A DNA stretch of 64,000 nt from contig CANPZY010000004.1 in assembly GCA_947588945.1 (NCBI GenBank), forward strand, positions 2,174 through 66,173, read 5' to 3'. How positions within the stretch are numbered: position 1 is the stretch's first letter; the number at the start of each line of letters is the position of its first letter. The stretch is from an uncultured Clostridia bacterium (GTDB lineage Bacteria > Bacillota > Clostridia > TANB77 > CAG-508). The translations under genes were made by a program, and so were the position numbers. Below the pieces are notes generated by a model. That model worked only from the letters and a program-made list of their open reading frames with translations. It made no database searches and was not told the origin of the DNA. Shown piece by piece: positions 890 through 11,905 of the stretch.

Positions 890-3148
890 TTACATCTCCT
901 TCCTTTTTAGTTCTTCTTCTGATAATTGTGAAGTTGCTATTTGCTTATATGTTTCACAACTTTCTAAAAGTTCATCATGTGTTCCAATTCCTACTATTTT
1001 TCCTTCTTCTAGAACTATTATTTGCTCTGCATTAAGTATTGTGCTAACTCTCTGAGCAACTATAATTACTGTCTTTCCTTCTGTTTTTTCCTTTAAAGCT
1101 TCTCTTAAATTTCTATCAGTTTTCAAATCTAATGCCGAAAAACTGTCATCAAATATAAATATTTCTGGATCTATTGCTAAAGCTCTTGCGATTGATAAAC
1201 GTTGTTTTTGTCCTCCTGATACATTATTTCCACCTTGCGCTATCTCCGACTTAAATTTATCTTCTTTATTATTAATAAATTCTGTTGCTTGTGCAATATC
1301 TGCTGCTTTTTCCATTTCTTCATCTGATATATCTTTTCCGTATTTTATGTTTGATTCAATTGTTCCTGAGAAAAGCATTCCTTTTTGTGGTACAAAACCA
1401 ATTCTTTTTCTTAAATCTTTTTGTGCTACATCTTTTATATTTGCACCATCTACTAAAATTTCTCCACTTGTTACATCATAAAATCTAGGAATCAAATTTA
1501 CTATCGTAGATTTTCCACTTCCTGTACTTCCTATAATTGCAGTAGTTTCTCCAGCCTTTGCTGTAAAAGTTATGTTTTTTAACACTTCTGTATCAGCCTC
1601 TGGATACTTAAATGATACATCTTTAAATTCTACTATTCCTTTTTTACTTTCATCAAATTTAGCTTGTTCTTTTTCTGGTTTATCTTTAATTTCTGGTTCT
1701 TTTTCAATTATTTCATTTATACGGTTAGCAGAAACAGCCGCTCTTGGAAGAATTATTGATATCATTGAAATCATCAAGAAACTCATGATAATTTGCATTG
1801 CATATTGTAAAAATGCCATCATATCTCCAACCTGCATTACACCACTATTAATATTGTGTCCTCCTACCCAGATTATAAGTAAAATAATACTCTGCATTAT
1901 TAATGTCATAATTGGCATCATTAAACTCATTACTCTATTTACAAATATACTATTTTTCATTAAATCTTGATTGGCTATTTCAAAACGTTTTTCTTCTCTT
2001 TTTTGTGTATTAAATGCTCTTATTACTGGTATTCCTGTTAATATTTCTCTCGAAACTAAGTTAAGTTTATCAATTAATTTTTGCATTAATTTGAATCTTG
2101 GCATAGTTGTTCCAAATAATGTACCTACTACTATAATTATTAAGACTACTGCTAATCCTATAATCCATGCCATCGACAGATTACTTGTTGATATTACTGT
2201 GATTAGCCCACCTATTGCAATAATTGGTCCATAAACTACTACTCTAAATAAAATTGCAAGAAGATCTTGTATTCTTTGAATATCATTTGTATTTCTTGTA
2301 ATAAGAGATGCTGCTCCAAACTCACTGAATTCTTTAGTTGAAAAACTTAATGTTTTCTTAAATACTTTATCTCTTAAATCTTTTCCAAATTGAGCAGCTA
2401 CTCTTGATGAGTAATACATAATAAGTATTGCGCACACCATACTAACTAACGCAACACCCAACATTTGTGCTCCAGTTTTTAATATATACATGTTTGAAAT
2501 ATTAGTTGTATTTATTCCTATAGCTTCATATTCTGTTTTTATAAAAGCTATAGCCGACTGCTCTTTTATAGATTCTGGCATTGTGTCTATTTGTTTATTT
2601 ATTCCATTTAAAAGATTGCTAATCACTTTTTCTGGAAGCAATTTTAAAATTTGAAATATATCACTTGATTCAATAAACTGTTCATTAATGCTACTTATAT
2701 TGTTACTACTAAGTAGCGAATTTTTTATAGATTGTTTAATTTGCTCTTTGTATTCTTCATTTTCAAGAATATTCATTACCATTAATGGAGTAGATAAACT
2801 TTTTTCAAGTTCTTCTTTTTCTTGTTTTGTAAGATCTTTTAATTTATAAATATCTTCACTTTCTATATTAGGATATTTTGCAATATTTTCTTCATTTTTT
2901 TCTATTTTTTCATAAGATGATAAAATTTTATTATAATCAACAGAAAAATTTTTAATATTATCTAAAGTAGATTTTCTTATAGCTTCTGGTAATGGATTTT
3001 CAATTCCACCTTGTTGAATTCCAACATTTACAATTTGCGACGTAAAATTTGGAAGTTTCAAGTCTGCTCCTGCTTGTATACACAAAAGTATAAAAATTAT
3101 CAATAATGATTTCCACGACCTTTTTAGGTTTTTTAATATTTTTAGCAT
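890..3148 (-). CDS. ABC exporter permease/ATP-binding protein (fused TMD-NBD) with a long insertion after TM1
   Basis: Walker A GSTGSGKST, ABC signature VSGGQKQRLSIARAL and Walker B IFIFDDSFSALD are present. The N-terminal half is a multi-TM domain. About 190 aa of low-complexity loop lie between the first TM and the rest. Confidence 0.9.
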   Translation of the reverse strand: MLKILKNLKRSWKSLLIIFILLCIQAGADLKLPNFTSQIVNVGIQQGGIENPLPEAIRKSTLDNIKNFSVDYNKILSSYEKIEKNEENIAKYPNIESEDIYKLKDLTKQEKEELEKSLSTPLMVMNILENEEYKEQIKQSIKNSLLSSNNISSINEQFIESSDIFQILKLLPEKVISNLLNGINKQIDTMPESIKEQSAIAFIKTEYEAIGINTTNISNMYILKTGAQMLGVALVSMVCAILIMYYSSRVAAQFGKDLRDKVFKKTLSFSTKEFSEFGAASLITRNTNDIQRIQDLLAILFRVVVYGPIIAIGGLITVISTSNLSMAWIIGLAVVLIIIVVGTLFGTTMPRFKLMQKLIDKLNLVSREILTGIPVIRAFNTQKREEKRFEIANQDLMKNSIFVNRVMSLMMPIMTLIMQSIILLIIWVGGHNINSGVMQVGDMMAFLQYAMQIIMSFLMISMISIILPRAAVSANRINEIIEKEPEIKDKPEKEQAKFDESKKGIVEFKDVSFKYPEADTEVLKNITFTAKAGETTAIIGSTGSGKSTIVNLIPRFYDVTSGEILVDGANIKDVAQKDLRKRIGFVPQKGMLFSGTIESNIKYGKDISDEEMEKAADIAQATEFINNKEDKFKSEIAQGGNNVSGGQKQRLSIARALAIDPEIFIFDDSFSALDLKTDRNLREALKEKTEGKTVIIVAQRVSTILNAEQIIVLEEGKIVGIGTHDELLESCETYKQIATSQLSEEELKRKEM

Positions 3149-3487
3149 TTTTATTTATATAACTAAAATTATAGATTTATAATATTTAGATTCTATATAT
3201 TTAATTTTTGTATACTTAATTTTTATATATTTATATTTATATTTATATACTTAAATACAAAACTATAATTTTAATCATACTCTCCTTGTATAATTTATTT
3301 AGGTTTTTAAGGATTTACCTATAAACCATATATTCAATAATATTAAATTATAAATAACTTATTTATTTTTGTCAAATAAAAATTTGTCCTATTTGAACTA
3401 TATTTAAAAATATGATTATAATTCAAATAGGACTTACTTTTAAGTATTTTCTTATTTTACATAATTTTTTCAAACTTATGTCTTACC

Positions 3488-3697
3488 TTATTTAGACTTT
3501 TTATAATATATGATATACTCTGAATCATCACAATTCATAACTATTTCATATTCAACTTTTTTGTTATTTTTTTCGTTAGTTGTTAAAAAATCATTATTGC
3601 TATATTCATCTATATTTACATCTTTTCCAAGACTATTAATGATTTCATCAATAATACTTCTTTCATTTTCGTTTGATTCATCTTCACCATATTTCAA
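3488..3697 (-). CDS. small acidic hypothetical protein (69 aa)
   Basis: ORF with a TTG start preceded by GAGG about 8 nt upstream. I recognise no family. Confidence 0.35.
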   Translation of the reverse strand: MKYGEDESNENERSIIDEIINSLGKDVNIDEYSNNDFLTTNEKNNKKVEYEIVMNCDDSEYIIYYKKSK

Positions 3698-3782
3698 TAT
3701 TATGCCTCGTTTCTATTTATTTAAAAATTTTCCAAAAATATATGCCATATAATTTTACATACCGATATAAAGTTTAATATTT

Positions 3783-3841
3783 ATCATTTATCATTTATCA
3801 TTTATCTTTTATCTTTTATATTTTATATTTTATATTTTATA
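3783..3841. repeat. drifting heptamer tandem repeat (ATCATTT)3(ATCTTTT)2(ATATTTT)3
   Basis: Read directly from the sequence. Period is 7 with about 8 units, abutting the stop codon (3842..3844) of the surface-protein gene. Confidence 0.9.
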
Positions 3842-4666
3842 TTAAATTTTAGAATATTTATATTTAACATTTACAGATTCTCTTTTGAATTTTCCTGTTA
3901 AGTTACCTTCTGTCTCTAAAAGATTATAACCAGATAACTTTTTTTCTAAACTACTTACATTATATTGTTCATTAATCATTCCTAATATTTTTTCTGAAGA
4001 TGCAATTATTTTATTTGTTTCGGCTTCCATATATTCAACATTTATTCCTTTAGAAGGAAAATCAATTTTTAATGTTGTACTTTCTGAACAATTTTTATTA
4101 TTATCACTTGTTCTTATATGTAAATAATAGTCTTTATCCCAATCAATATTTTCTAAAATAATTGGTTCATTATCGAATTTATTTACATCTTCATTAACTG
4201 TATCTTTTTCAATATTATTTATTTTATAACAATATCCTTGAATTCCTGATTCTGAATAAAACTCTAAAATTTTGTTTTTGTCTTTATTTCTTATTATATA
4301 TTCATATTTATTACCATTGTCTTTTGGCTTATAAAAACTTATATAGGCACTATTATTGGTATTATTTATTTTGACATCTATATTTTTAATATTATCAGGT
4401 GCGTTAACATCCTTTGTAATTAAATTAATACTTTTATTTGACTTAAATAAAATCTGGGGTTCAATTGATTTAATTAAATTTAGCCCATTTATTGTATTTT
4501 CATATACATTGCTTCCTGCTTCAACTTTTACTATCGCAGTTTCATTCGTTTTTTCTTGTATAGTAGCTAAATCTATATTTGAATTAATTTTTATTAATAT
4601 TATTGATAAAATTATGGTGACTACAGCAATATAACCTTTTATCTTTCGTTTAAAAGAAACTTTCAT
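3842..4666 (-). CDS. membrane-anchored surface protein with a C-terminal MucBP-like domain
   Basis: The track ORF is 3842..4690. The second ATG (4666) has AAAGGAG 7 nt upstream and gives MKVSFKRKIKGYIAVVTIILSIILI (N-terminal anchor). The C-terminus GINVEYMEAETNKII...LSGYNLLETEGNLTGKFKRESVNVKYKY resembles the MucBP pattern. Confidence 0.6.
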   Translation of the reverse strand: MKVSFKRKIKGYIAVVTIILSIILIKINSNIDLATIQEKTNETAIVKVEAGSNVYENTINGLNLIKSIEPQILFKSNKSINLITKDVNAPDNIKNIDVKINNTNNSAYISFYKPKDNGNKYEYIIRNKDKNKILEFYSESGIQGYCYKINNIEKDTVNEDVNKFDNEPIILENIDWDKDYYLHIRTSDNNKNCSESTTLKIDFPSKGINVEYMEAETNKIIASSEKILGMINEQYNVSSLEKKLSGYNLLETEGNLTGKFKRESVNVKYKYSKI

Positions 4667-4711
4667 AATATTCTCCTTTCTTTTAAACATTTATTATTCT
4701 TGACAAGAAAT

Positions 4712-4739
4712 AACCAGAATTTGTTGCCAAATTCTGGTT
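4712..4739 (-). other. 11-bp stem hairpin (AACCAGAATTT/AAATTCTGGTT), either a 5' leader of the surface-protein transcript or the mcrC terminator
   Basis: Perfect inverted repeat with a 6-nt loop. It lies 3 nt downstream of the -10 box of the promoter below and about 145 nt after the mcrC stop. Confidence 0.5.
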
Positions 4740-4741
4740 AT

Positions 4742-4770
4742 ATTATATTTTTATTTTTTATATTTGTCAA
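4742..4770 (-). promoter_or_regulatory. consensus sigmaA-type promoter TTGACA-17-TATAAT
   Basis: The minus strand reads TTGACAaatataaaaaataaaaaTATAAT. The -35 box is 4770..4765 and the -10 box is 4747..4742, about 75 nt upstream of the 4666 start. Confidence 0.6.
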
Positions 4771-4882
4771 TACTTTTTTGTTAAATTTTAACATTTTTTG
4801 TAATTAAATATTATTATATCTTTTGATATGTAAAAGTTTTAGTAACTGAACAATTTATCCTTCTATTTTTGTTTAATAATTT

Positions 4883-6052
4883 TTATTTTAATTCAGTATA
4901 TATTTGTTCTGCTAACATTTTCATTTGACCTGCAATTGTTTGCTCCCCTTCTTTAGCAATTTCTGGATTTCCAAATTCTTGAGAAAAATCAATAGTTTTT
5001 ACTTCCATTTCATTGTCATGTATAGAAACTTTTACTTGTAAATTATTAAATTCTTTCCCTGTACTAGCATATAAAAGCATTCCACAAACTTTTGCATTTT
5101 CACCTTTTTTTTCTATTTCCCATTTTTTATTCATAATATAAGAAAATAGCTGATACCAATTATCTCTATTAGTACTAACTGTATCTGAACCATTAAATCC
5201 TTTATTATTTAAAATATGTGAATAAAATTTTGCATCAATTATTTTTACTTTATTATTTTTAGATATAGTAATATCTGTGTGCATTGTTGGAATATATTTT
5301 TCATTTATTTTATTTTTTTCATCTACATCCCACTTTATTAATTCACTTTTTATATCTAATTGAATAGGCTGTTCTCTATATTCTAAAAAATACTTTTTTA
5401 AGTAATTTCTTATAAATTTTTCAAATAATGTATGATATGGCTGATTATCATCAATTTTTGAAAAACTTTCACTTTCATCTTTCTTTTTTATTATTAAATC
5501 ATTAAGAATATATTTACACATATTTATAATCACTTTATATTTTCTATTTAAGTTATTAAATTTAATATCTTCCCAAATAATTTTGTTAGGATCATTCATA
5601 ATCTCTATATTTTCATATACATGATATAATTTTCTTAGTTTGATTCTATTATCGTTCATAATATTACAATTTAATAAAAATTGTATTGTAGTTTTTATAA
5701 TTTTATTAATTAAATTATTTTGCGAATATTCTTCATAATTACAAATAACTCTATTTTTTATTTTTAGTACATTAGTCTGAATAGTATTTAATATATCTAT
5801 TCTTCCTTTTATGTATGGTAAGTCTTCACTATATTCTACATATTCATTATAAGTTCCTTCTTGTAATAATTCTTTCAATCTAATATATAAAACTATAGAA
5901 AATAAATCATAAATATTATTCATTTTTTCAAAGCCAAACATTTCATTATCTTCAAAATGAATTTTTTCATCATCAAAAGCATATGCAAGTAAATAATAAA
6001 AATTTCTAACTTTTATTTCATTGAATCTATCATTCATTATTATGTTCCTCAT
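4883..6052 (-). CDS. mcrC: McrBC 5-methylcytosine restriction system, endonuclease subunit McrC
   Basis: The start overlaps the mcrB stop by 23 nt. It has a PD-(D/E)xK-type motif ...TMHTDITISKNNKVKIIDAKFY... near the C-terminus, and a size and architecture typical of McrC. Confidence 0.8.
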   Translation of the reverse strand: MRNIIMNDRFNEIKVRNFYYLLAYAFDDEKIHFEDNEMFGFEKMNNIYDLFSIVLYIRLKELLQEGTYNEYVEYSEDLPYIKGRIDILNTIQTNVLKIKNRVICNYEEYSQNNLINKIIKTTIQFLLNCNIMNDNRIKLRKLYHVYENIEIMNDPNKIIWEDIKFNNLNRKYKVIINMCKYILNDLIIKKKDESESFSKIDDNQPYHTLFEKFIRNYLKKYFLEYREQPIQLDIKSELIKWDVDEKNKINEKYIPTMHTDITISKNNKVKIIDAKFYSHILNNKGFNGSDTVSTNRDNWYQLFSYIMNKKWEIEKKGENAKVCGMLLYASTGKEFNNLQVKVSIHDNEMEVKTIDFSQEFGNPEIAKEGEQTIAGQMKMLAEQIYTELK

Positions 6053-7799
6053 TTTTATTATTATTTAAAAAATTATCAATAGATGTTACATCATTACTAA
6101 TACTCAAAAAGCTCTTTATTTTTTCAATTTTTGAATTATCTCCTATTAAATACTCTTTTAATTGTGGATATATTTCATAATTTATAATAAAATCTAATCT
6201 AGTATCTAAATTTTCACAATTATTTAGACCACAAAAATAACTATGTCCAAATTTTATACCATCTAATTTTTTACTATTATTTATTGACTTAATTTTTTCT
6301 ACTAAAATATTTAAATTTGTATTATTAATATCATTTAAGTAATCTTTAAAATTGCTTTCTCCTTCTTGATCCTCAAAACATGGTTTAACTTCATACATAG
6401 CAAATCTTCTTCTTAAGGCAAAATCCATTGATGCTATTGATTTATCCATAGTATTCATTGTACCAATAAAATACACATTTTCAGGAATGTCAAATTTTTC
6501 TTCTTTATTTTCTGAATATGGTAATGTAACAGCATACTTACTATTTATATTTGCTTTTACTTGTTCTGCAGTGATTCTTTTATCTTTTTCTATAAGCATA
6601 AATGTTTCTCCAAATATTTTGCTTATATTTCCTCTATTAATTTCATCTATAATAATTACATAACAATTTTGTATATCTTTTCTGGCATTATCACAAACAA
6701 CTTTTAGAATACCATCTATTGGTTTAAATGTTCCATCATTTTGTGGTCTTAGACCTTGAATAAAATCTTCATATGCATAGCTTTGATGAAACTGGATTAT
6801 CTTTATATTATCTTCTCTATTGTTTGTTATTTTACTTGCAATCTTTCTTGCAATATATGTTTTACCAACTCCTGGTACACCTTCTAAAATAATATTTTTC
6901 TTATATTCTAATAATTTTACAATTCTATTAAATTCATTTTCACTCATAAAATTATATTCTTTAGGTTTTTTCATCACTTTTTCTGGATTTTCTAATTTTA
7001 ATTCATCGTCCTGTTCAATACTTTTATCTTCTTTATATCCGAAAAAATGGTAAGTTCTATTTATTGCATTAAATAAAATAATTGGATCATATTCTTTATT
7101 GTTTATTTCTGGTATATTGTCCCTTATATATTTATTTATTAAAAAAGATTTATGTATACAATTTAATTTTATATTTTTATCATATTCTATTCCAAGTGTT
7201 TGTATTAATTGGTTTAAAATTGAAATAGATTTTATACCAATAAATTTATCTGGATATAATTGTGTTGCCATATACAATAGCACTCCTGGAACTTGTGAAA
7301 AATATGTATTAAAATTTTTATCATTTTTAAAATAATCTGCTTTTAATAGTTCTTTCATTTTTTCTCTATTAAATGTTTCAAAATATTTTATTTCATTATA
7401 ATTGTTTGCATCTTTAATACTATCTAAAAAATCAGCTATATAATTTCTTAATTTTTTCCAAATTTCTTTTGCTTCATCATCACTTAAATTAGAATTTGCA
7501 ATTGCATATTTTTTATTATCTTGATTTCTATATATTATAAGTTTATATACAGGTCCATTAAGTTTTGGATTTTGTATTCTTACATATTCACCAAATTCAA
7601 TTTTATAACCAAAATAATTTGTAGAAATAGCTTTTACATTACTATACTCCTCTAATTTTAATTTTCTAAAATTATTTGTATTATACTCTTCTACATATTT
7701 ATCTCTTATTTCTTTATAATCTTTAGATGTTTTTATTTCTTCTTCATCTTGTATTAAAACATTAAAATTTTCTTTTATTTGTTGTATTTTTTCGTTCAT
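6030..7799 (-). CDS. mcrB: McrB-family AAA+ GTPase subunit with an unrecognised ~285-aa N-terminal domain
   Basis: Walker A is LEGVPGVGKTY. The McrB signature IIIDEINRGNISKIFGE and FIGTMNTMDKSIASMDFALRRRF are present in the C-terminal half. Confidence 0.85.
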   Translation of the reverse strand: MNEKIQQIKENFNVLIQDEEEIKTSKDYKEIRDKYVEEYNTNNFRKLKLEEYSNVKAISTNYFGYKIEFGEYVRIQNPKLNGPVYKLIIYRNQDNKKYAIANSNLSDDEAKEIWKKLRNYIADFLDSIKDANNYNEIKYFETFNREKMKELLKADYFKNDKNFNTYFSQVPGVLLYMATQLYPDKFIGIKSISILNQLIQTLGIEYDKNIKLNCIHKSFLINKYIRDNIPEINNKEYDPIILFNAINRTYHFFGYKEDKSIEQDDELKLENPEKVMKKPKEYNFMSENEFNRIVKLLEYKKNIILEGVPGVGKTYIARKIASKITNNREDNIKIIQFHQSYAYEDFIQGLRPQNDGTFKPIDGILKVVCDNARKDIQNCYVIIIDEINRGNISKIFGETFMLIEKDKRITAEQVKANINSKYAVTLPYSENKEEKFDIPENVYFIGTMNTMDKSIASMDFALRRRFAMYEVKPCFEDQEGESNFKDYLNDINNTNLNILVEKIKSINNSKKLDGIKFGHSYFCGLNNCENLDTRLDFIINYEIYPQLKEYLIGDNSKIEKIKSFLSISNDVTSIDNFLNNNKNEEHNNE

Positions 7800-7810
7800 T
7801 AATAACCTCC

Positions 7811-7836
7811 AAAATTTGATAAATTTTTAAAACTTA
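7811..7836 (-). repeat. junction motif copy (AAGTTTTAAAAATTTATCAAATTTT), partial
   Basis: Lies directly after the rhuM-family stop. It is similar to the 5' part of the motif at 9961..10000 (AAGTTTTAACAAATTCAATCAC). Confidence 0.45.
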
Positions 7837-7842
7837 TTGCAC

Positions 7843-8847
7843 TTATTTTAATTTTTTCGTTTCAATCAATAGCTTATCAAAATCAGATATAATCTTCTGT
7901 TTTTTATTAAATTTGTCATATTCTCTTTCTGCCTTTTCTTCTGCTTCCTTTCTAGAAATTTTCCCATTATCTTGTAATATATCATATTTTCTAAATTCTA
8001 AAAAAGCATTTATACTTTCTGCAAATTCCTCCATTGTAAATGTATTTTCTCTTTCGACTAAATCTTCAATATAATCAAAATATCCAGATACAGTCCTTTC
8101 TAACCTCTTTATCTGCTTTTCATCTAAATAATTTTTTGCAATTAATACATCTGATTTTAATATTCTACCATCTGGTGAATGTTTCCATGTTGTTAATCCC
8201 ATATTTTCTTTTTGGCTATTTGCTTTATTATATATAATTTCTGCTGCTGTATTTCCAGTAATTGCATAATGAAACTTATTTTGAACAGTCGCATAAAATT
8301 GTTTTGTTATATCTGAATTTTTATCATAATCTATGCTACATTCTGCAAAAATATCAGTTATCTGTTGCCATATTCTACGTTCGCTCGCTCTAATTGAGCG
8401 AATTCGTTCCAAAAGTTCTTTAAAGTAATCTTTTCCAAAAAAGTTCTCTACATTTTTTAATCTTTCATCATCTAAAGCAAAACCTTTTGTTATATATTCC
8501 TTTAAAACTTTTGTTGCCCAAATTCTAAATTGTGTTGCCTTTTTTGAATTTACTCTATATCCTACTGCTATTATAACATTTAGATTATAAATTTTTACAG
8601 GTTTATCTGAATTTGCAAAGTGCATTTTTTGCACATTGCTTTTTTCGTCTAATTCTTGTTCTTTAAATATGTTATTGATATGTTTTGTAACAACAGTTCT
8701 ATCTTTACCAAACAATTCTGCTATTAAGTCTTGTGTTAGCCATAAATCGTCATTAATAAGTAGAACATTTACTTTCACATCTCCATTTTCATCTGTATAA
8801 ATTAAAAAGTCTTTTTTTATTAAATTTTTATCATTTTTTTGCAACAA
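7843..8847 (-). CDS. RhuM-family protein
   Basis: N-terminal region ...DENGDVKVNVLLINDDLWLTQDLIAELFGKDRTVVTKHINNIFKEQEL...VGYRVNSKKATQFRIWATKVLKEYITKGFALDDERLK matches the RhuM family pattern. TTG start with AAAGGAAAG upstream. Confidence 0.8.
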   Translation of the reverse strand: MLQKNDKNLIKKDFLIYTDENGDVKVNVLLINDDLWLTQDLIAELFGKDRTVVTKHINNIFKEQELDEKSNVQKMHFANSDKPVKIYNLNVIIAVGYRVNSKKATQFRIWATKVLKEYITKGFALDDERLKNVENFFGKDYFKELLERIRSIRASERRIWQQITDIFAECSIDYDKNSDITKQFYATVQNKFHYAITGNTAAEIIYNKANSQKENMGLTTWKHSPDGRILKSDVLIAKNYLDEKQIKRLERTVSGYFDYIEDLVERENTFTMEEFAESINAFLEFRKYDILQDNGKISRKEAEEKAEREYDKFNKKQKIISDFDKLLIETKKLK

Positions 8848-8949
8848 ATTGCTTTCCTTTCTTTAAAAATTTTAATTTTCCATTGACTTTTTATAGCTTG
8901 TATTTATATTAAAATTTTGTTGTATCAATGGTCTGAAAGTGGTTTCATA

Positions 8950-8977
8950 GAACAAATATGTAGATTTGTTAAACTTA
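8950..8977 (-). repeat. junction motif copy, partial (AAGTTTAACAAATCTACATATTTGTTC)
   Basis: Shares AAGTTTAACAAAT with the other copies. It contains a 7-bp hairpin AACAAAT/ATTTGTT. Confidence 0.4.
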
Positions 8978-9020
8978 GCTTTACAACTACTGTTAAGAGC
9001 ATTTTTTCAACATTCAAAAA

Positions 9021-9058
9021 TGCTATTTTAATGCTACGCCATTAAGTTTATTAAACTT
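9021..9058 (-). repeat. junction motif copy (minus strand AAGTTTAATAAACTTAATGGCGTAGCATTAAAATAGCA)
   Basis: Starts 3 nt after the fic stop. Near-identical in layout to 9961..10000 and contains a TAAAAT -10-like box. Confidence 0.7.
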
Positions 9059-9060
9059 CT

Positions 9061-9909
9061 TTAACATTTATAAAATAATCTAAGTTCTGTATTATCTAAT
9101 TTATTATTTTTATTAAATAGCAAATTTTCAAAAAACATTATTAAATATTTGTTATCTCCTTCAATTCCATTTGAAATGTTGCTATAATTTGCTCTAACCA
9201 AAGCATTTCTAAAATATAATGAATTATCTTTGAATAGTTCGTTATTAACATTAAAACCTTTGCTATTCAAATATTTTTGTATAAATAGAGCAGTAGTTCT
9301 TGTATTTCCTTCTCCAAAAGGGTGTACTTGCCAAATGTGTGCTGTGAATTTGCATAATCTTTCTAATTTTTCTCTTTCTGTTTTTTCTGTGTATCTTTGA
9401 TTTGCTTCTTCTTCAAAATCATATTTTAAAGTTTCTTCAATCATAGAATAATCTGCATATTGTACTGATTCTCCATTTAAAATTGACTCTTTTTTTGTAA
9501 TGTTATAATCTCTAAATTCTCCAATGTATTTTTCATTGATTCCTATATCTATGTTTTCAAATAACTTTTTATGATATTGTTTCAATGTTAAATAATTAAA
9601 TGTAAAAGCTTTATCATTTAATATTTTTACTATCCTTATTGATACTTCATCAGCTTGCTTTTCACTTTTATTTACTCTTTCTTTATCAACGTTTTCATAA
9701 TATTCCTTTACTTCTTTTTCAACTATTTCATAACTTTTGTTTCCAATAATATTTTCTGTTGCTAAGTCTACCATATATTTAGAAGGAGTAAGATTATCCA
9801 CTGCTTGAAGTCCAAATGCAATATTCCAATTTAATTGGCGTTCTTTAGAATCGTTAGTTTCACCAATTTTTTCATATTTAATTTTATCTAAATATTTTTC
9901 TTCTATCAT
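9061..9909 (-). CDS. Fic/DOC-family protein with a non-canonical active-site motif
   Basis: The Fic motif region reads HPFGEGNTRTTA (9324..9289), against canonical HxFx(D/E)GNGRxxR. AGAGGT RBS 6 nt upstream of the ATG. Confidence 0.8.
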   Translation of the reverse strand: MIEEKYLDKIKYEKIGETNDSKERQLNWNIAFGLQAVDNLTPSKYMVDLATENIIGNKSYEIVEKEVKEYYENVDKERVNKSEKQADEVSIRIVKILNDKAFTFNYLTLKQYHKKLFENIDIGINEKYIGEFRDYNITKKESILNGESVQYADYSMIEETLKYDFEEEANQRYTEKTEREKLERLCKFTAHIWQVHPFGEGNTRTTALFIQKYLNSKGFNVNNELFKDNSLYFRNALVRANYSNISNGIEGDNKYLIMFFENLLFNKNNKLDNTELRLFYKC

Positions 9910-9960
9910 ACATTACCTCTATAATTTTCATATATTACTTTTGTATCATTATCATAAAAA

Positions 9961-10000
9961 TTGCTATTTTACGGCTACGTGATTGAATTTGTTAAAACTT
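9961..10000 (-). repeat. junction motif copy (minus strand AAGTTTTAACAAATTCAATCACGTAGCCGTAAAATAGCAA) with promoter-like TTAACA-18-TAAAAT
   Basis: Starts 1 nt after the stop of the 74/79-aa ORF and ends about 50 nt upstream of the fic start. Confidence 0.7.
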
Positions 10001-10001
10001 A

Positions 10002-10226
10002 TTAATCATTATTGCTTTTTAAATTATCATAAAAATTTTTCTTATATTCTTCTATTTTCTCTTTATCAACTTTTCCAATCTTGAACAATTGTTCTTTTAT
10101 CCAATTTTCTGCATTTCCTTTATGCCATTCTTCTTCAACTGGATATTCTTCAAATGCTTCTTTTACATCTTTAACTTTGCCATATTTATATGCAGTTTTT
10201 AAGAAATCACTTAATTCTTCTTTCAT
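10002..10226 (-). CDS. small hypothetical protein (74 aa from the RBS-supported ATG; 79 aa in the track)
   Basis: The track ORF is 10002..10241. The second ATG (10226) has GGAG about 10 nt upstream. It lies immediately upstream of fic on the same strand. No family recognised. Confidence 0.5.
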   Translation of the reverse strand: MKEELSDFLKTAYKYGKVKDVKEAFEEYPVEEEWHKGNAENWIKEQLFKIGKVDKEKIEEYKKNFYDNLKSNND

Positions 10227-10255
10227 TATTATATTCTCCATATTTTATAAATTTA

Positions 10256-10285
10256 CAGCAATTTTACGGCTAATAGCTAAAATTT
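10256..10285 (-). repeat. junction motif copy, partial (TTAGCCGTAAAATTGCTG)
   Basis: Shares GCCGTAAAAT(T/A)GC with 9961..10000. It lies 15-45 nt upstream of the small ORF. Confidence 0.5.
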
Positions 10286-10319
10286 TATATAATTTCTAAT
10301 TTTTTCAAAATTAAAAATT

Positions 10320-10354
10320 CTCATTTTTAGCACTTTTAGAGTTTATTAAAATAT
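10320..10354 (-). repeat. junction motif copy next to the lysS stop (TTTTAATAAACTCTAAAAGTGCTAAAAATGAG)
   Basis: Shares the 11-mer TTTAATAAACT and a G(T)GCTAAAAAT segment with the copy at 9021..9058. It begins 7 nt after the lysS stop. Confidence 0.5.
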
Positions 10355-10360
10355 ATTAAA

Positions 10361-11905
10361 CTAATTTAGTGTTTTCATAGTTGGGAATAGTAATACATCT
10401 CTTATTGAAGCTGAATCAGTTAAAAGCATAACTAATCTATCAATTCCCATTCCCATTCCTCCTGTTGGTGGAAGTCCAATTTCTAGGGCATTGATATAAT
10501 CTTCATCCATCATTCCTGCTTCTTCATCACCGTTTTCTCTATTTTTAATTTCATTCAAAAATCTTTCATATTGATCTATTGGATCATTTAATTCTGAAAA
10601 GGCATTAGCATACTCTCTGCCAGCTATAAATAATTCAAATCTTTGAGTCATTTCTGGATTTCCTTTTACTTTTTTAGCAAGAGGTGAATTTTCTATTGGA
10701 TATTCATATACAAATGTTGGTTGAATTAAAGTTTCTTCTACTTTTTCATCAAATACTTGCGCAATTATATCTCCCCTTGTTTTTTTGATTGGATCTAATT
10801 CAATATTAAGCTCTTTTAATACTTTTTGTGCTTCTTCATCTGTTTTAATTGTATTGAAATCAACTCCTGTAACTTCTTTGATTGCATCTATCATAGTTAT
10901 TCTTTTCCATGATGGTGTAAGGTCTAAATCTACTCCTTGATAGCTAATTTTTAAAGTTCCTAAAACTTTCATTGCAATTTTTGTAATTAATTCCTCTGTT
11001 AATTCCATCATATCTGATAAATCTTGATATGCAGAATAAAGTTCTATACTTGTGAATTCTGGATTGTGTTTTATATCCATTCCTTCATTTCTAAATATTC
11101 TTCCTATTTCATATACTTTATCAAATCCACCGACAATTAATCTTTTTAAGTTAAGCTCTGTAGCAATTCTTAAGTACATATCTATATCTAATGTATTATG
11201 ATGTGTGATAAAAGGTTTTGCAGTAGCTCCTCCTGAAATTGTATTTAGTACTGGAGTTTCAACTTCTAAGTATCCTTTCTCATCAAGAATATTTTTCATT
11301 TCTTTAATTATTTGAGTTCTTTTAATAAAGGCATCTTTTACTTCCGGATTTACTATTAAATCAACATATCTTTGTCTATATCTTAAGTCTGTATCTTTTA
11401 ATCCATGAAATTTTTCTGGAAGTGGTTTTAAAGATTTTGAAAGAAGTTCTACTTTTTTAGCATGAACAGATATTTCCTCTGTTCTTGTTTTAAATACAAA
11501 TCCAGTAAGACCAATAATATCTCCTATATCAAATTCTTTAAAGTCTTTATAAGCTTCTTCTCCTAAATCATTTATGCTTACATAACTTTGTATTTTTCCT
11601 TCAGAATCCTGAATATGGCAAAATGATGCTTTTCCCATTATTCTTTTTGCCATTAGTCTTCCTGCTATTGTTACATCTTTTCCTTCTAATTCTGCATAGT
11701 TATCCACAATTTGTTTACTTGTGTGAGTTCTTTCAAATCTTGTAATTTCAAATGGGTCTTTATTAGCTTCTCTTAATTTTTCTAATTTTTCCTTTCTAAC
11801 TTGCATTAGATGGTTCATATCTAATTCTTCTACATTTTCGCTTGCATTCTTATTTTCACTTAAGCTTTCCTTTACATTTTGGTTATTAACATTATTCTCT
11901 TGCAT
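10361..11905 (-). CDS. lysS: lysine--tRNA ligase (class II)
   Basis: Full-length LysRS pattern. It includes an OB anticodon-binding domain, [20 protein letters not shown] (motif 2 region) and [15 protein letters not shown] (motif 3 region). There is a roughly 30-aa N-rich N-terminal extension. Confidence 0.95.

What the first reader, a model, noticed from the sequence alone, without database searches (positions are those of the whole stretch)
3149..10360. Accessory (defence-type) island wedged between an ABC exporter operon and lysS
This roughly 7 kb stretch breaks the run of housekeeping genes. It holds a small acidic ORF, a surface protein, McrC, McrB, a RhuM-family gene, a Fic-family gene and a 74-aa ORF, all on the minus strand. 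McrBC is an established type IV restriction system. RhuM and Fic genes are known to ride in restriction/defence loci, usually inside type I R-M operons, but no hsd genes are present here. The RhuM / Fic / small-ORF trio next to McrBC therefore has no assigned role. It is the most plausible place in the window for an uncharacterised defence or toxin module. I saw no integrase or transposase, so the mechanism of acquisition is not evident.
Basis: partly seen in the sequence, partly recalled or inferred. Interest (0 to 1): 0.6.

Follow-up and report, generated by a model that had tools for sequence, protein, structure and literature searches.

The report
Patchwork defence island downstream of lysS
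Downstream of the lysine-tRNA synthetase gene of an uncultured gut Clostridia bacterium lie four separately acquired pieces (a dead toxin-gene relic, an orphan Fic enzyme, a RhuM anti-phage gene and a McrBC restriction system); they are ordinary defence cargo at an integration hotspot, not a new multi-gene system.

Summary
All seven ORFs exist and carry the stated domains, but the region is not one island and the "RhuM/Fic/small-ORF trio" is not a module.

- **Core genes, not island.** The "surface protein" and the "small acidic ORF" are two fragments of one core gene of about 500 aa that is intact in relatives.
- **True accessory stretch.** It runs from about 4877 to 10367 and has three independent parts.
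- **Part 1: orf79 plus Fic (1.43 kb).** It lies between attL- and attR-like ends of an element that integrates into the lysS 3' end. Relatives G014 and G009 carry the intact form: about 45 kb, with a tyrosine integrase. orf79 is an in-frame deletion relic of a 185-aa PemK/MazF-like gene. Fic belongs to PADLOC candidate PDC-S72 and has a deviant active-site motif.
- **Part 2: a solitary RhuM gene (PDC-S05).** One member of this family has published anti-phage activity.
- **Part 3: a 2.96-kb McrBC cassette.** It is 97% identical to one in another MAG, where it sits between lysS and the M50 peptidase gene. Its McrB N-terminal domain is rare and unassigned.

Co-occurrence of these genes elsewhere is negligible. 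An independent assembly confirms the gene order.

Verdict: new members of known kinds; modest interest.

The parts
10361..11905 (-). lysS (class II lysyl-tRNA synthetase). A core gene whose 3' end is the integration target. Its last codons (..MKTLN*) are of the element-supplied type.
   Evidence: Pfam tRNA-synt_2, 9e-91. The tail after 'FPTMK' varies between relatives. The attL alignment is A10.
10368..10380 (-). attL-side copy of the 13-bp core CTATGAAAACACT, inside the lysS 3' end.
   Evidence: Only two perfect copies exist in the window, here and at 8938-8950. Alignments A5 and A10.
10258..10273 (-). Junction motif copy 1 (TTAGCCGTAAAATTGC), on the attL arm and upstream of orf79. It is promoter-like.
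   Evidence: Three copies exist in the whole 1.4-Mb assembly, all in this stretch. The same motif follows lysS in G014, G049 and G009.
10002..10241 (-). orf79, a relic of a 185-aa PemK/MazF-like gene. It keeps the first 51 and last 28 residues of the G007 protein; about 93 codons (the toxin core) were lost by an in-frame deletion.
   Evidence: The G007 homologue L013:3405-3962 hits PF02452 at 4e-6. Alignment A2. tblastn gives 96% identity on both retained parts.
9963..9978 (-). Junction motif copy 2 (GTAGCCGTAAAATAGC). It begins about 22 bp after the orf79 stop and contains TTAACA-18-TAAAAT upstream of Fic.
9061..9909 (-). Fic-fold protein of PADLOC candidate family PDC-S72. The Fic motif is HPFGEGNTRTTA. 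In the N-terminal helix, AxxxQA stands where the inhibitory (S/T)xxxE(G/N) motif would be.
   Evidence: Invariant columns in A3. AF2 pLDDT 89.5. Foldseek matches Fic folds at TM about 0.5.
9022..9037 (-). Junction motif copy 3 (GTAGCATTAAAATAGC), on the attR arm. In G014 and G009 the same position follows the integrase gene.
   Evidence: Alignment A9.
8925..8952 (-). attR core CTATGAAACCACT plus the displaced original lysS tail (..MKPLSDH*).
   Evidence: It aligns to the lysS 3' ends of G004, L035 and G007. The same layout lies after the integrase in G014 and G009.
7843..8847 (-). RhuM-family gene (PDC-S05), intact at 334 aa. The N-terminal part is winged-helix/Rha-like; the C-terminal part is the helical RhuM core.
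   Evidence: PF13310 at 9e-105 and PDC-S05 at 4e-149. G004 has lysS followed directly by this gene, at 91% nt identity. The AF2 model is confident only for residues 20-110.
4877..7832 (-). McrBC cassette: McrB 6030-7799 and McrC 4883-6052, overlapping by 23 nt.
   Evidence: It is 97.3% nt identical over 2956 bp to L137, where it lies between lysS and M50; lysS itself is only 83% identical. The motif alignments to E. coli McrB and McrC are.
6951..7799 (-). McrB N-terminal domain (residues 1-283), the presumed DNA-modification reader. It is rare and unassigned.
   Evidence: Only 16 of 1.84 billion representatives match at E<=1e-3, and only 2 clusters in the 5.8-billion set. No Pfam or PDB match. 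None of the 5 genus McrB homologues shares it.
4818..4876 (.). Breakpoint between the McrBC cassette and the core MucBP promoter region. In relatives ppaC precedes the MucBP gene and M50 follows the lysS hotspot.
3488..4690 (-). One broken core surface-protein gene. The N-terminal 282 aa are at 3842-4690 and the C-terminal 69-aa fragment at 3488-3697. About 170 aa (two MucBP repeats) are missing, and a 7-bp tandem repeat marks the scar at about 3783-3841.
   Evidence: Alignment A6 with the 481-515-aa orthologues. Synteny.

Best explanation
The stretch is a mosaic built up at one chromosomal hotspot: the spacer between lysS and the M50-peptidase/tsaD genes of this Clostridia genus.

(a) orf79 plus Fic (about 10367-8938) is the integrase-less remnant of an element that integrates by tyrosine recombination into the last codons of lysS. 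The element replaces the lysS tail and leaves the original tail downstream, at attR. The reiterated ~45-bp junction motif behaves like the arm sequences of that att site (inferred). orf79 is a dead PemK/MazF-like toxin gene. Fic is intact and probably the only working cargo: a single-gene, Fic-fold protein modifier of the PDC-S72 candidate defence family, with chemistry likely other than canonical AMPylation (inferred).

(b) RhuM is a solitary single-gene anti-phage effector (PDC-S05). It sat directly after lysS before the Fic element arrived.

(c) McrBC is a separately acquired, intact type IV system. McrB is an AAA+ GTPase that reads modified DNA through its N-terminal domain, and McrC cuts with a PD-(D/E)xK nuclease. 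The specificity here is unknown because the reader domain is novel.

(d) A later rearrangement joined the distal edge of the hotspot to the MucBP-ABC region.

The genes act independently. Their adjacency reflects the hotspot, not an operon-level partnership.
For: Shown:
- Relatives have lysS followed by M50-tsaD-phosphoesterase. The cargo in between is variable or absent: nothing; orf79/PemK+Fic; Fic alone; RhuM; McrBC; GNAT; DUF402; a 45-kb element.
- G014 and G009 carry ParA/ParB ... tyrosine integrase (PF00589, 3e-26; 98.5% identical between the two species), then the junction motif, about 70 bp, a lysS-tail relic and M50. The same motif also follows lysS on the attL side.
- G000's two ends align to these attL and attR ends (A9, A10).
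- attL sequences go with the element type (G000 = L039; G014 = G009 = G049). The displaced tails differ by host.
- G004 has lysS directly followed by RhuM, at 91% nt identity.
- The McrBC cassette is 97.3% identical to L137 over exactly 2956 bp, with unrelated flanks and lysS at 83%.
- The catalytic motifs are intact: McrB GVPGVGKT, DEINR, MNTMDKS and RRRF; McrC D..DAK.
- Co-occurrence is low: orf79-N is found near Fic only in G007; RhuM loci carry no Fic or McrBC; the genes flanking Fic are heterogeneous.
- The independent contig ERZ27060145 NODE_993 is colinear, with 10 SNPs in 12.4 kb.
- PDC-S05 anti-phage activity is published in a preprint.
Against: - No cognate integrase is found in G000 (best hit 38% identity, on C11). 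Neither excision nor integration has been shown.
- The 13-bp core overlaps the last conserved lysS codons, so part of the 'direct repeat' could simply be conserved coding sequence.
- The motif also looks like a promoter (TTAACA-18-TAAAAT) for the conserved 45-aa N-terminal part of the PemK-like gene. Reiteration could therefore come from duplication of that promoter rather than from arm sites.
- RhuM stop and McrB start are only 43 bp apart, so co-transcription and functional coupling are not excluded.
- No function was tested for any of these alleles.
Confidence: 0.72

Rival explanations
1. The four accessory genes form one cooperating, layered defence unit. McrBC would attack modified DNA, and RhuM and Fic would act as back-up toxins, as proposed for R-M loci that embed RhuM or Doc genes.
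For: Anantharaman et al. 2013 (PMC3710099) describe RhuM-like and Fic/Doc toxins embedded in R-M loci, and RhuM-Doc fusions. All genes here share one strand with short gaps. About 18% of RhuM loci lie between hsdM and hsdS.
Against: Each piece occurs alone at the same hotspot in other genomes. An attR scar with a lysS-tail relic lies between Fic and RhuM. The McrBC cassette is 97% identical to one in another MAG that lacks RhuM and Fic beside it. 0 of 80 RhuM loci have McrBC or Fic.
Confidence: 0.1
2. There is no site-specific element. The variability comes from homologous or illegitimate recombination at a generic hotspot. The repeated motif would then be only the duplicated promoter region of the resident 45-aa/PemK-like gene.
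For: The N45/PemK-like gene is a long-standing resident of the lysS-M50 spacer in many assemblies. The motif is promoter-like and shows no hairpin. It is absent from viral contigs.
Against: In G014 and G009 the motif plus the lysS-tail relic lies directly after a tyrosine integrase, at the far end of a 45-kb ParAB-bearing insert, and the motif is repeated next to lysS. The lysS tails switch exactly at the core.
Confidence: 0.15
3. The gene order is an assembly (MAG) chimera that joins two strains.
For: G000 is a 42-contig, 90.6%-complete MAG. Its gene order lysS..McrBC..MucBP is unique among relatives, and ppaC is missing.
Against: An independent 16.4-kb contig from another assembly is colinear from recN to the ABC gene, with 10 SNPs and no gaps. 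A Logan contig spans RhuM-McrB.
Confidence: 0.03

Closest known systems
E. coli K-12 McrBC (type IV, modification-dependent restriction)
   Same: The AAA+ GTPase core matches (3e-60) with Walker A/B, MNTxDxS and RRRF motifs. McrC matches (6e-26) with the D..DAK nuclease motif. The two genes overlap, mcrB then mcrC.
   Different: The N-terminal 283 residues are unrelated to the E. coli reader domain and to anything in Pfam or the PDB. The domain is very rare. Target modification is unknown.
PADLOC PDC-S05 / Pfam Virulence_RhuM (Salmonella SPI-3 RhuM family)
   Same: Full-length HMM matches and the same single-gene format. One family member is reported to protect E. coli B against T7, T5 and T4.
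   Different: This copy is not inside an hsd operon and has no partner genes. The mechanism of the family is still unknown. My structure model was too poor to assign the C-terminal fold.
Class II Fic proteins (e.g. C. difficile Fic, SoFic) and PADLOC PDC-S72
   Same: Fic fold (Foldseek probability 1.0, TM about 0.5-0.56) with an N-terminal helix at the position of the inhibitory helix. PDC-S72 HMM match at 2e-81.
   Different: The motif is HPFxEGNTRTxA rather than HxFx(D/E)GNGRxxR. An invariant AxxxQ replaces (S/T)xxxE. The protein lacks the ~100-aa C-terminal part of the 377-position PDC-S72 profile. No member has been tested, as far as the library shows.
Integrative elements that target the 3' end of a housekeeping gene, and their integrase-less derivatives (CIME-type remnants of streptococcal ICEs; recalled from the literature, not checked here)
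   Same: Flanking att-like repeats, a replaced gene tail, a displaced original tail, loss of the recombination module, and intact relatives with a tyrosine integrase at the same site.
   Different: Only 1.43 kb is left. Mobility is untested. A third, internal copy of the motif is present.
PemK/MazF type II toxins
   Same: The intact G007 orthologue of orf79 carries a PemK_toxin domain.
   Different: In G000 the toxin core is deleted. The gene has a conserved 45-aa N-terminal extension instead of a separate antitoxin gene. It decays differently in each lineage.

Membership tests
McrBC type IV restriction | McrB AAA+ GTPase core with Walker A/B and McrB signature motifs | tested here: met
   PDB 6hz4_A at 2.7e-60, residues 284-561. 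GVPGVGKT, IIIDEINRGN, MNTMDKS and ALRRRF all align.
McrBC type IV restriction | McrC partner with a PD-(D/E)xK nuclease motif, encoded immediately downstream | tested here: met
   PF10117 at 5e-28. 6hz4_M at 6e-26. 'MHTDITI..KIIDAKFY' aligns to the E. coli 'METDITI..LIVDAKYY'. The genes overlap by 23 nt.
McrBC type IV restriction | N-terminal DNA-binding domain that reads a base modification | tested here: inconclusive
   A 283-aa domain is present but matches no known reader domain.
McrBC type IV restriction | GTP-dependent cleavage of modified DNA | not testable with these tools
   This needs biochemistry.
RhuM / PDC-S05 | Full-length match to the family profiles | tested here: met
   PF13310 at 9.4e-105 (profile positions 12-249 of 252). 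PDLC04868 at 4.5e-149.
RhuM / PDC-S05 | Confers phage resistance as a single gene | not testable with these tools
   Reported for one family member only.
Fic AMP-transferases (canonical) | Fic fold | tested here: met
   PF02661 at 5.6e-11. AF2 pLDDT 89.5. Foldseek probability 1.0 to Bep, VbhT, FICD and CdFic structures.
Fic AMP-transferases (canonical) | Active-site motif HxFx(D/E)GNGRxxR | tested here: not met
   The motif is HPFGEGNTRTTA. T203 and A207 are invariant and R204 is nearly invariant across the 23 aligned homologues.
Fic AMP-transferases (canonical) | Inhibitory helix motif (S/T)xxxE(G/N), in cis or on a small antitoxin | tested here: not met
   A31-F-G-L-Q35-A stands at the N-terminal helix, and Q35 is invariant. 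The upstream small ORF is a PemK relic, not a VbhA-type antitoxin.
PADLOC PDC-S72 | Match to the family profile over its length | tested here: inconclusive
   The match is strong (2e-81) but covers only profile positions 15-269 of 377. The C-terminal domain is absent.
PemK/MazF toxin (for orf79) | PemK SH3-like toxin core | tested here: not met
   The core is deleted in G000. It is present in the G007 orthologue (PF02452, 4e-6).
Site-specific integrative element | Flanking att repeats with a target-gene tail duplication | tested here: met
   The 13-bp core occurs at 10368-10380 and 8938-8950. The displaced lysS tail follows the second copy. The ends are homologous to the G014 and G009 element ends.
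Site-specific integrative element | Own integrase | tested here: not met
   None in the window or contig. The best G000 hit is 38% identical, on C11. Intact relatives have one.
Integron-type cassette array | attC-like folded recombination sites and IntI | tested here: not met
   The junction motifs do not fold better than shuffles (z from -1.6 to +0.65). No integrase is adjacent.
Type I R-M with embedded RhuM/Fic | hsdM/hsdS/hsdR flanking the gene | tested here: not met
   PF02384 finds nothing in the whole G000 assembly.

The most novel reading that the evidence does not exclude
The PDC-S72-type Fic family has more than 7,700 homologues across many phyla. It carries an invariant HPFxEGNTRTxA motif and a Gln in place of the inhibitory Glu. 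The novel reading is that it is a stand-alone anti-phage effector using chemistry other than AMPylation, for example a diphosphate-linked donor. The 1.4-kb attL-Fic-attR unit would then be a minimal cargo element still mobilisable in trans by the lysS-targeting integrase seen in G014 and G009. Alongside it sits a McrBC whose rare reader domain recognises an unusual DNA modification.
Probability: 0.2. Interest if true: 0.55.

Novelty: new member of a known kind. Interest (0 to 1): 0.3.

Why it matters
**What the finding becomes.** It turns a vague "island of unknown module" into a concrete map. There is one integration hotspot (the lysS 3' end and the lysS-M50 spacer) and one decayed integrative element with identifiable att ends. 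There are also three independent defence cargos.

**Two leads worth bench work:**
- A very widespread Fic subfamily with a non-canonical catalytic motif and no tested member.
- A McrB reader domain seen in only about 16 protein clusters out of 1.84 billion.

**A caution for annotation.** Small ORFs next to toxin-like genes can be gene wrecks rather than antitoxins.

**For annotation of uncultured gut Clostridia.** The lysS-M50 spacer is a good place to look for new cargo.

Tried and rejected
- **Code 4 (TGA=W).** ORFs are already intact under table 11.
- **orf79 as a VbhA-type antitoxin or general partner of Fic.** Rejected. Its HMM hits only G007 among 80 Fic loci, and it is a PemK relic.
- **Junction motif as an attC-like hairpin.** Rejected; it folds no better than shuffles.
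- **Junction motif as a phage attP.** No exact matches in viral contigs.
- **Rfam scan of 2800-10800.** No hits at E<=1.
- **Promoter scan.** Not above the shuffled background, apart from two perfect consensus promoters.
- **RhuM structure.** The AF2 model was poor (pLDDT 61.5). The Foldseek hits (DdrC, MarR) indicate at best an N-terminal winged helix. The C-terminal fold remains unassigned.
- **McrB N-domain.** The profile found nothing in the PDB or Pfam.
- **Literature search 'DinD + RhuM'.** It returned only irrelevant papers.
- **Read mapping to test contig continuity.** I used an independent assembly instead.
- **The G000 rearrangement.** The path that moved M50-tsaD behind trpS and lost ppaC was not resolved.


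Full report
**What is there.** The window is contig C4 of a 1.40-Mb, 42-contig, 90.6%-complete assembly with about 26% G+C. Titles of related records call these organisms uncultured Clostridia MAGs from rabbit, sheep and human guts. Table 11 applies. All genes of the region lie on the minus strand. In the direction of transcription they are:
- recN (13603-11984)
- lysS (11905-10361)
- orf79 (10241-10002)
- Fic (9909-9061)
- RhuM (8847-7843)
- McrB (7799-6030)
- McrC (6052-4883)
- a MucBP-domain ORF (4690-3842)
- a 69-aa acidic ORF (3697-3488)
- two ABC exporter genes (3148-...)

.
- RhuM: PF13310, 9e-105; PADLOC PDC-S05, 4e-149.
- Fic: PF02661, 6e-11; PDC-S72, 2e-81.
- McrB: AAA_5; NCBIfam McrB, 6e-63, over residues 283-560 only.
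- McrC: PF10117, 5e-28.
- MucBP: PF06458.

.

**Which genes are really accessory.** In genus relatives the order ABC_B, acidic ORF, MucBP gene is conserved. There the acidic ORF and the MucBP ORF form a single ORF of 481-546 aa. The alignment shows what G000 keeps:
- the first ~282 residues;
- the last ~62 residues;
- about 170 residues (two MucBP repeats) are missing;
- 7-bp tandem repeats sit at the scar.

Two of the seven "island" ORFs are therefore fragments of one broken core gene. The island's left edge lies between 4817 and 4877. Similarity to relatives' MucBP promoter region ends at 4817, and the McrBC cassette ends at 4877.

On the other side, lysS in relatives is followed by an M50 peptidase, tsaD and a metallophosphoesterase. 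In G000 that trio lies on contig C6, behind trpS. lysS and the ABC genes are thus not neighbours in any relative. G000 has a rearrangement whose breakpoint is the far edge of the lysS-downstream spacer. An independent 16.4-kb contig from another assembly is colinear from recN to the ABC gene, with 10 SNPs in 12,423 nt and no gaps. A Logan contig spans RhuM-McrB. The order is therefore real and not a binning artefact.

**The lysS-M50 spacer is a hotspot.** Its content differs in almost every genome examined:

| Genome or locus | Content between lysS and M50 |
|---|---|
| G024, G017, G011, G008 | nothing |
| L121 | a 45-aa ORF |
| L116 | GNAT plus the PemK-like gene |
| G012 | DUF402 plus a translocase-like gene |
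| G020 | a kinase-like gene |
| G016 | DUF1294 plus an acyltransferase |
| L035 | Fic alone |
| G007 | PemK-like gene plus Fic |
| L039 | a 140-aa ORF, a RhuM remnant and Fic |
| G004 | RhuM (contig ends there) |
| L137 | McrBC |
| G014 | a ~45-kb element |

Prevalence among the 44 genus genomes searched (G000 included) is patchy:
- McrB AAA+ part: 6 of 44, at 46% identity or less, and none shares the N-terminal domain.
- This Fic family: 12 of 44.
- RhuM: 31 of 44, often with several copies and fragments.

**orf79 is a gene wreck.** G007 has a 185-aa gene at the same place, with a PemK/MazF toxin domain (PF02452, 4e-6). G000's orf79 equals that protein's residues ~16-64 plus its last 28 residues, at 96% identity. 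About 93 codons, the toxin core, are removed in frame. Other lineages hold the same gene in other states of decay:
- an in-frame stop after the first ~54 codons (L116, seen on 22 contigs);
- truncation to 45 aa (L121);
- a frameshifted second copy (G007).

. The first 45 residues stay about 80% identical throughout, which I cannot explain. An HMM of this N-terminal part finds it next to Fic only in G007 among 80 Fic loci. It is not a Fic partner or antitoxin.

**The orf79-Fic unit sits between att-like ends.**
- A 13-bp sequence, CTATGAAA[A/C]CACT, occurs inside the lysS 3' end (10380-10368) and again between Fic and RhuM (8950-8938). These are the only perfect copies in the window.
- After the second copy comes TTCAGACCATTGA. 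Read in frame it gives ..MKPLSDH*, the LysS C-terminus of G004, L035 and G007. G000's own LysS ends ..MKTLN*.
- A ~45-bp motif (TAAGTTTTAAYAAATTCAAT-nnn-GTAGCnnTAAAATAGC) occurs three times in the entire assembly: after lysS, after orf79 and after Fic.
- In G014 and G009 a ~45-kb insert follows lysS. It begins with ParA, ParB, a SpaA-repeat surface protein and an LPD16 protein, and ends with a 402-aa tyrosine integrase (PF00589, 3e-26). The integrase is 98.5% identical between the two species. After it come the same motif, about 70 bp, a lysS-tail relic and M50. The motif is also present just after lysS.
- G000's two ends align with these attL and attR regions.
- The attL sequence goes with the element type (G000 = L039; G014 = G009 = G049). 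The displaced tails differ by host.

This is the classical signature of integration into the 3' end of a gene. orf79-Fic is what is left of such an element after loss of its integrase and body. G000's best integrase homologue is only 38% identical and lies on another contig. That the motif is an arm-type site is inference. It also resembles a promoter (TTAACA-18-TAAAAT). It does not fold as a hairpin and is absent from viral contigs.

**Fic.**
- The family is large: 7,712 of the 8,000 scored candidates are hits. It spans many phyla.
- In an alignment of 23 members at 56-88% identity, the motif HPFxEGNTRTxA is essentially fixed. H196, F198, G201, N202, T203, T205 and A207 are invariant, and R204 is nearly so.
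- The N-terminal segment WNxAFGLQxVD is equally conserved, with Q35 invariant.
- AF2 gives a confident model (pLDDT 89.5). Its best structural neighbours are Fic domains (Bep, VbhT, EcFicT, FICD, CdFic, SoFic; probability 1.0, TM 0.4-0.56).
- The canonical AMPylation motif HxFx(D/E)GNGRxxR is not met. The position of the class II inhibitory motif carries AxxxQA. For comparison, PDB entry 4x2d is titled as the S31A/E35A mutant of the C. difficile Fic protein.
- From established knowledge of Doc and AnkX, such departures go with different chemistry. That is inference here.
- G000's protein covers only positions 15-269 of the 377-position PDC-S72 profile. About half of the 80 relatives are 340-395 aa long.
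- The genes flanking Fic are very heterogeneous. Of 148 flanking genes, 4 are HsdM, 4 HsdR, 3 HsdS, 4 resolvases and 3 PemK. This is a free-standing single gene.
- No paper in the library mentions PDC-S72.

**RhuM.**
- The gene is intact.
- Its neighbours in the genus are housekeeping genes (CotJA/CotJB, an aminotransferase, an M20 peptidase).
- In 80 metagenome loci, 14 of 139 flanking genes are HsdM, 14 are HsdS, 5 are integrases and 5 are S24/HTH repressors. None is McrB, McrC, Fic or LysS.
- Anantharaman et al. 2013 predicted RhuM to be a toxin domain that takes the place of Doc in R-M loci and is often fused to Doc.
- A 2025 preprint reports that a PDC-S05 representative lowered plating of T7 and T5 about 1000-fold and of T4 about 10-fold in E. 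coli B.
- My model was confident only for residues 20-110 (a beta-hairpin/winged-helix region). Matches to DdrC and MarR are weak. The effector mechanism remains unknown.

**McrBC.**
- The core motifs align with the E. coli proteins.
- The cassette (7832-4877) is 97.3% identical over 2,956 bp to one in MAG GCA_947630255, where it lies directly between lysS and M50. The lysS genes are only 83% identical, and the flanks on both sides are unrelated. The identity begins 33 nt before the McrB start and ends 6 nt after the McrC stop, so the cassette moved recently as a tight unit. How it moved is not evident.
- The 283-aa N-terminal domain has only 16 representatives in 1.84 billion proteins. It has no Pfam or PDB relative.
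- G000 has no hsdM-type methylase.

**Verdict.** The "trio" is three unrelated items:
- a dead toxin gene;
- an orphan Fic inside a decayed integrative element;
- a solitary RhuM.

They sit next to a separately imported McrBC. Each belongs to a known or candidate family. What is new is the map of the hotspot and of the att ends. Two unexplored protein features also stand out: the deviant Fic motif and the rare McrB reader domain.

My tests agree with them. They add that the motif marks att ends and that the surface-protein gene is truncated.

Noticed in passing
window 3283-3375 (minus strand): A ~45-nt leader motif, GGTTTATAGGTAAAnCCTTAAAAACCTAAATAnATTATACAAGGAG, sits between a perfect TTGACA-17-TATAAT promoter and an RBS. 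It has at least 25 copies across G000 contigs, almost always just 5' of an AAGGAG-type RBS. It also occurs in genus relatives. There is no Rfam hit. It may be a lineage-specific 5'-UTR element.
   Followed up: partly
window 10104-10241; L116:2974-3498; L121:3001-3138; L013:4143-4285: The first 45 residues of the PemK-like gene (MKEELSDFLKxAYKYGKVKDxKEAFEEYPVEEEWHKG) stay about 80% identical in about 140 protein clusters. Meanwhile the toxin part is lost by nonsense mutation, deletion, truncation or frameshift. In L116 a single in-frame stop separates the two parts, on 22 contigs. Why the N-terminal peptide is kept is unexplained.
   Followed up: partly
G014:C1:123500-169000 (L022, L219); G009:C11 (L220): A ~45-kb integrative, probably conjugative, element sits in the lysS 3' end. 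It carries ParA, ParB, a 1,399-aa SpaA-repeat surface protein, an LPD16 polyvalent protein and a tyrosine integrase. The integrase is 98.5% identical in two species.
   Followed up: partly
G000 contig C6:48000-60387 (L033) versus relatives: In G000 the M50-tsaD-phosphoesterase block follows trpS instead of lysS. The family II pyrophosphatase gene (ppaC, DHH/DHHA2) precedes the MucBP gene in relatives but has no hit in the G000 assembly. The rearrangement path is unresolved.
   Followed up: partly
L014:7181-8551 (G004): thyA and folA are inserted between recN and lysS in G004 only. This is another variable junction in the neighbourhood.
   Followed up: no
L131:5868-7644, L132:4524-6300 (G010, G015): The closest RhuM homologues (82% identity) sit directly after cotJA-cotJB. 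From memory, that is where cotJC (Mn catalase) normally lies. Mn_catalase was also among the Fic neighbours.
   Followed up: no
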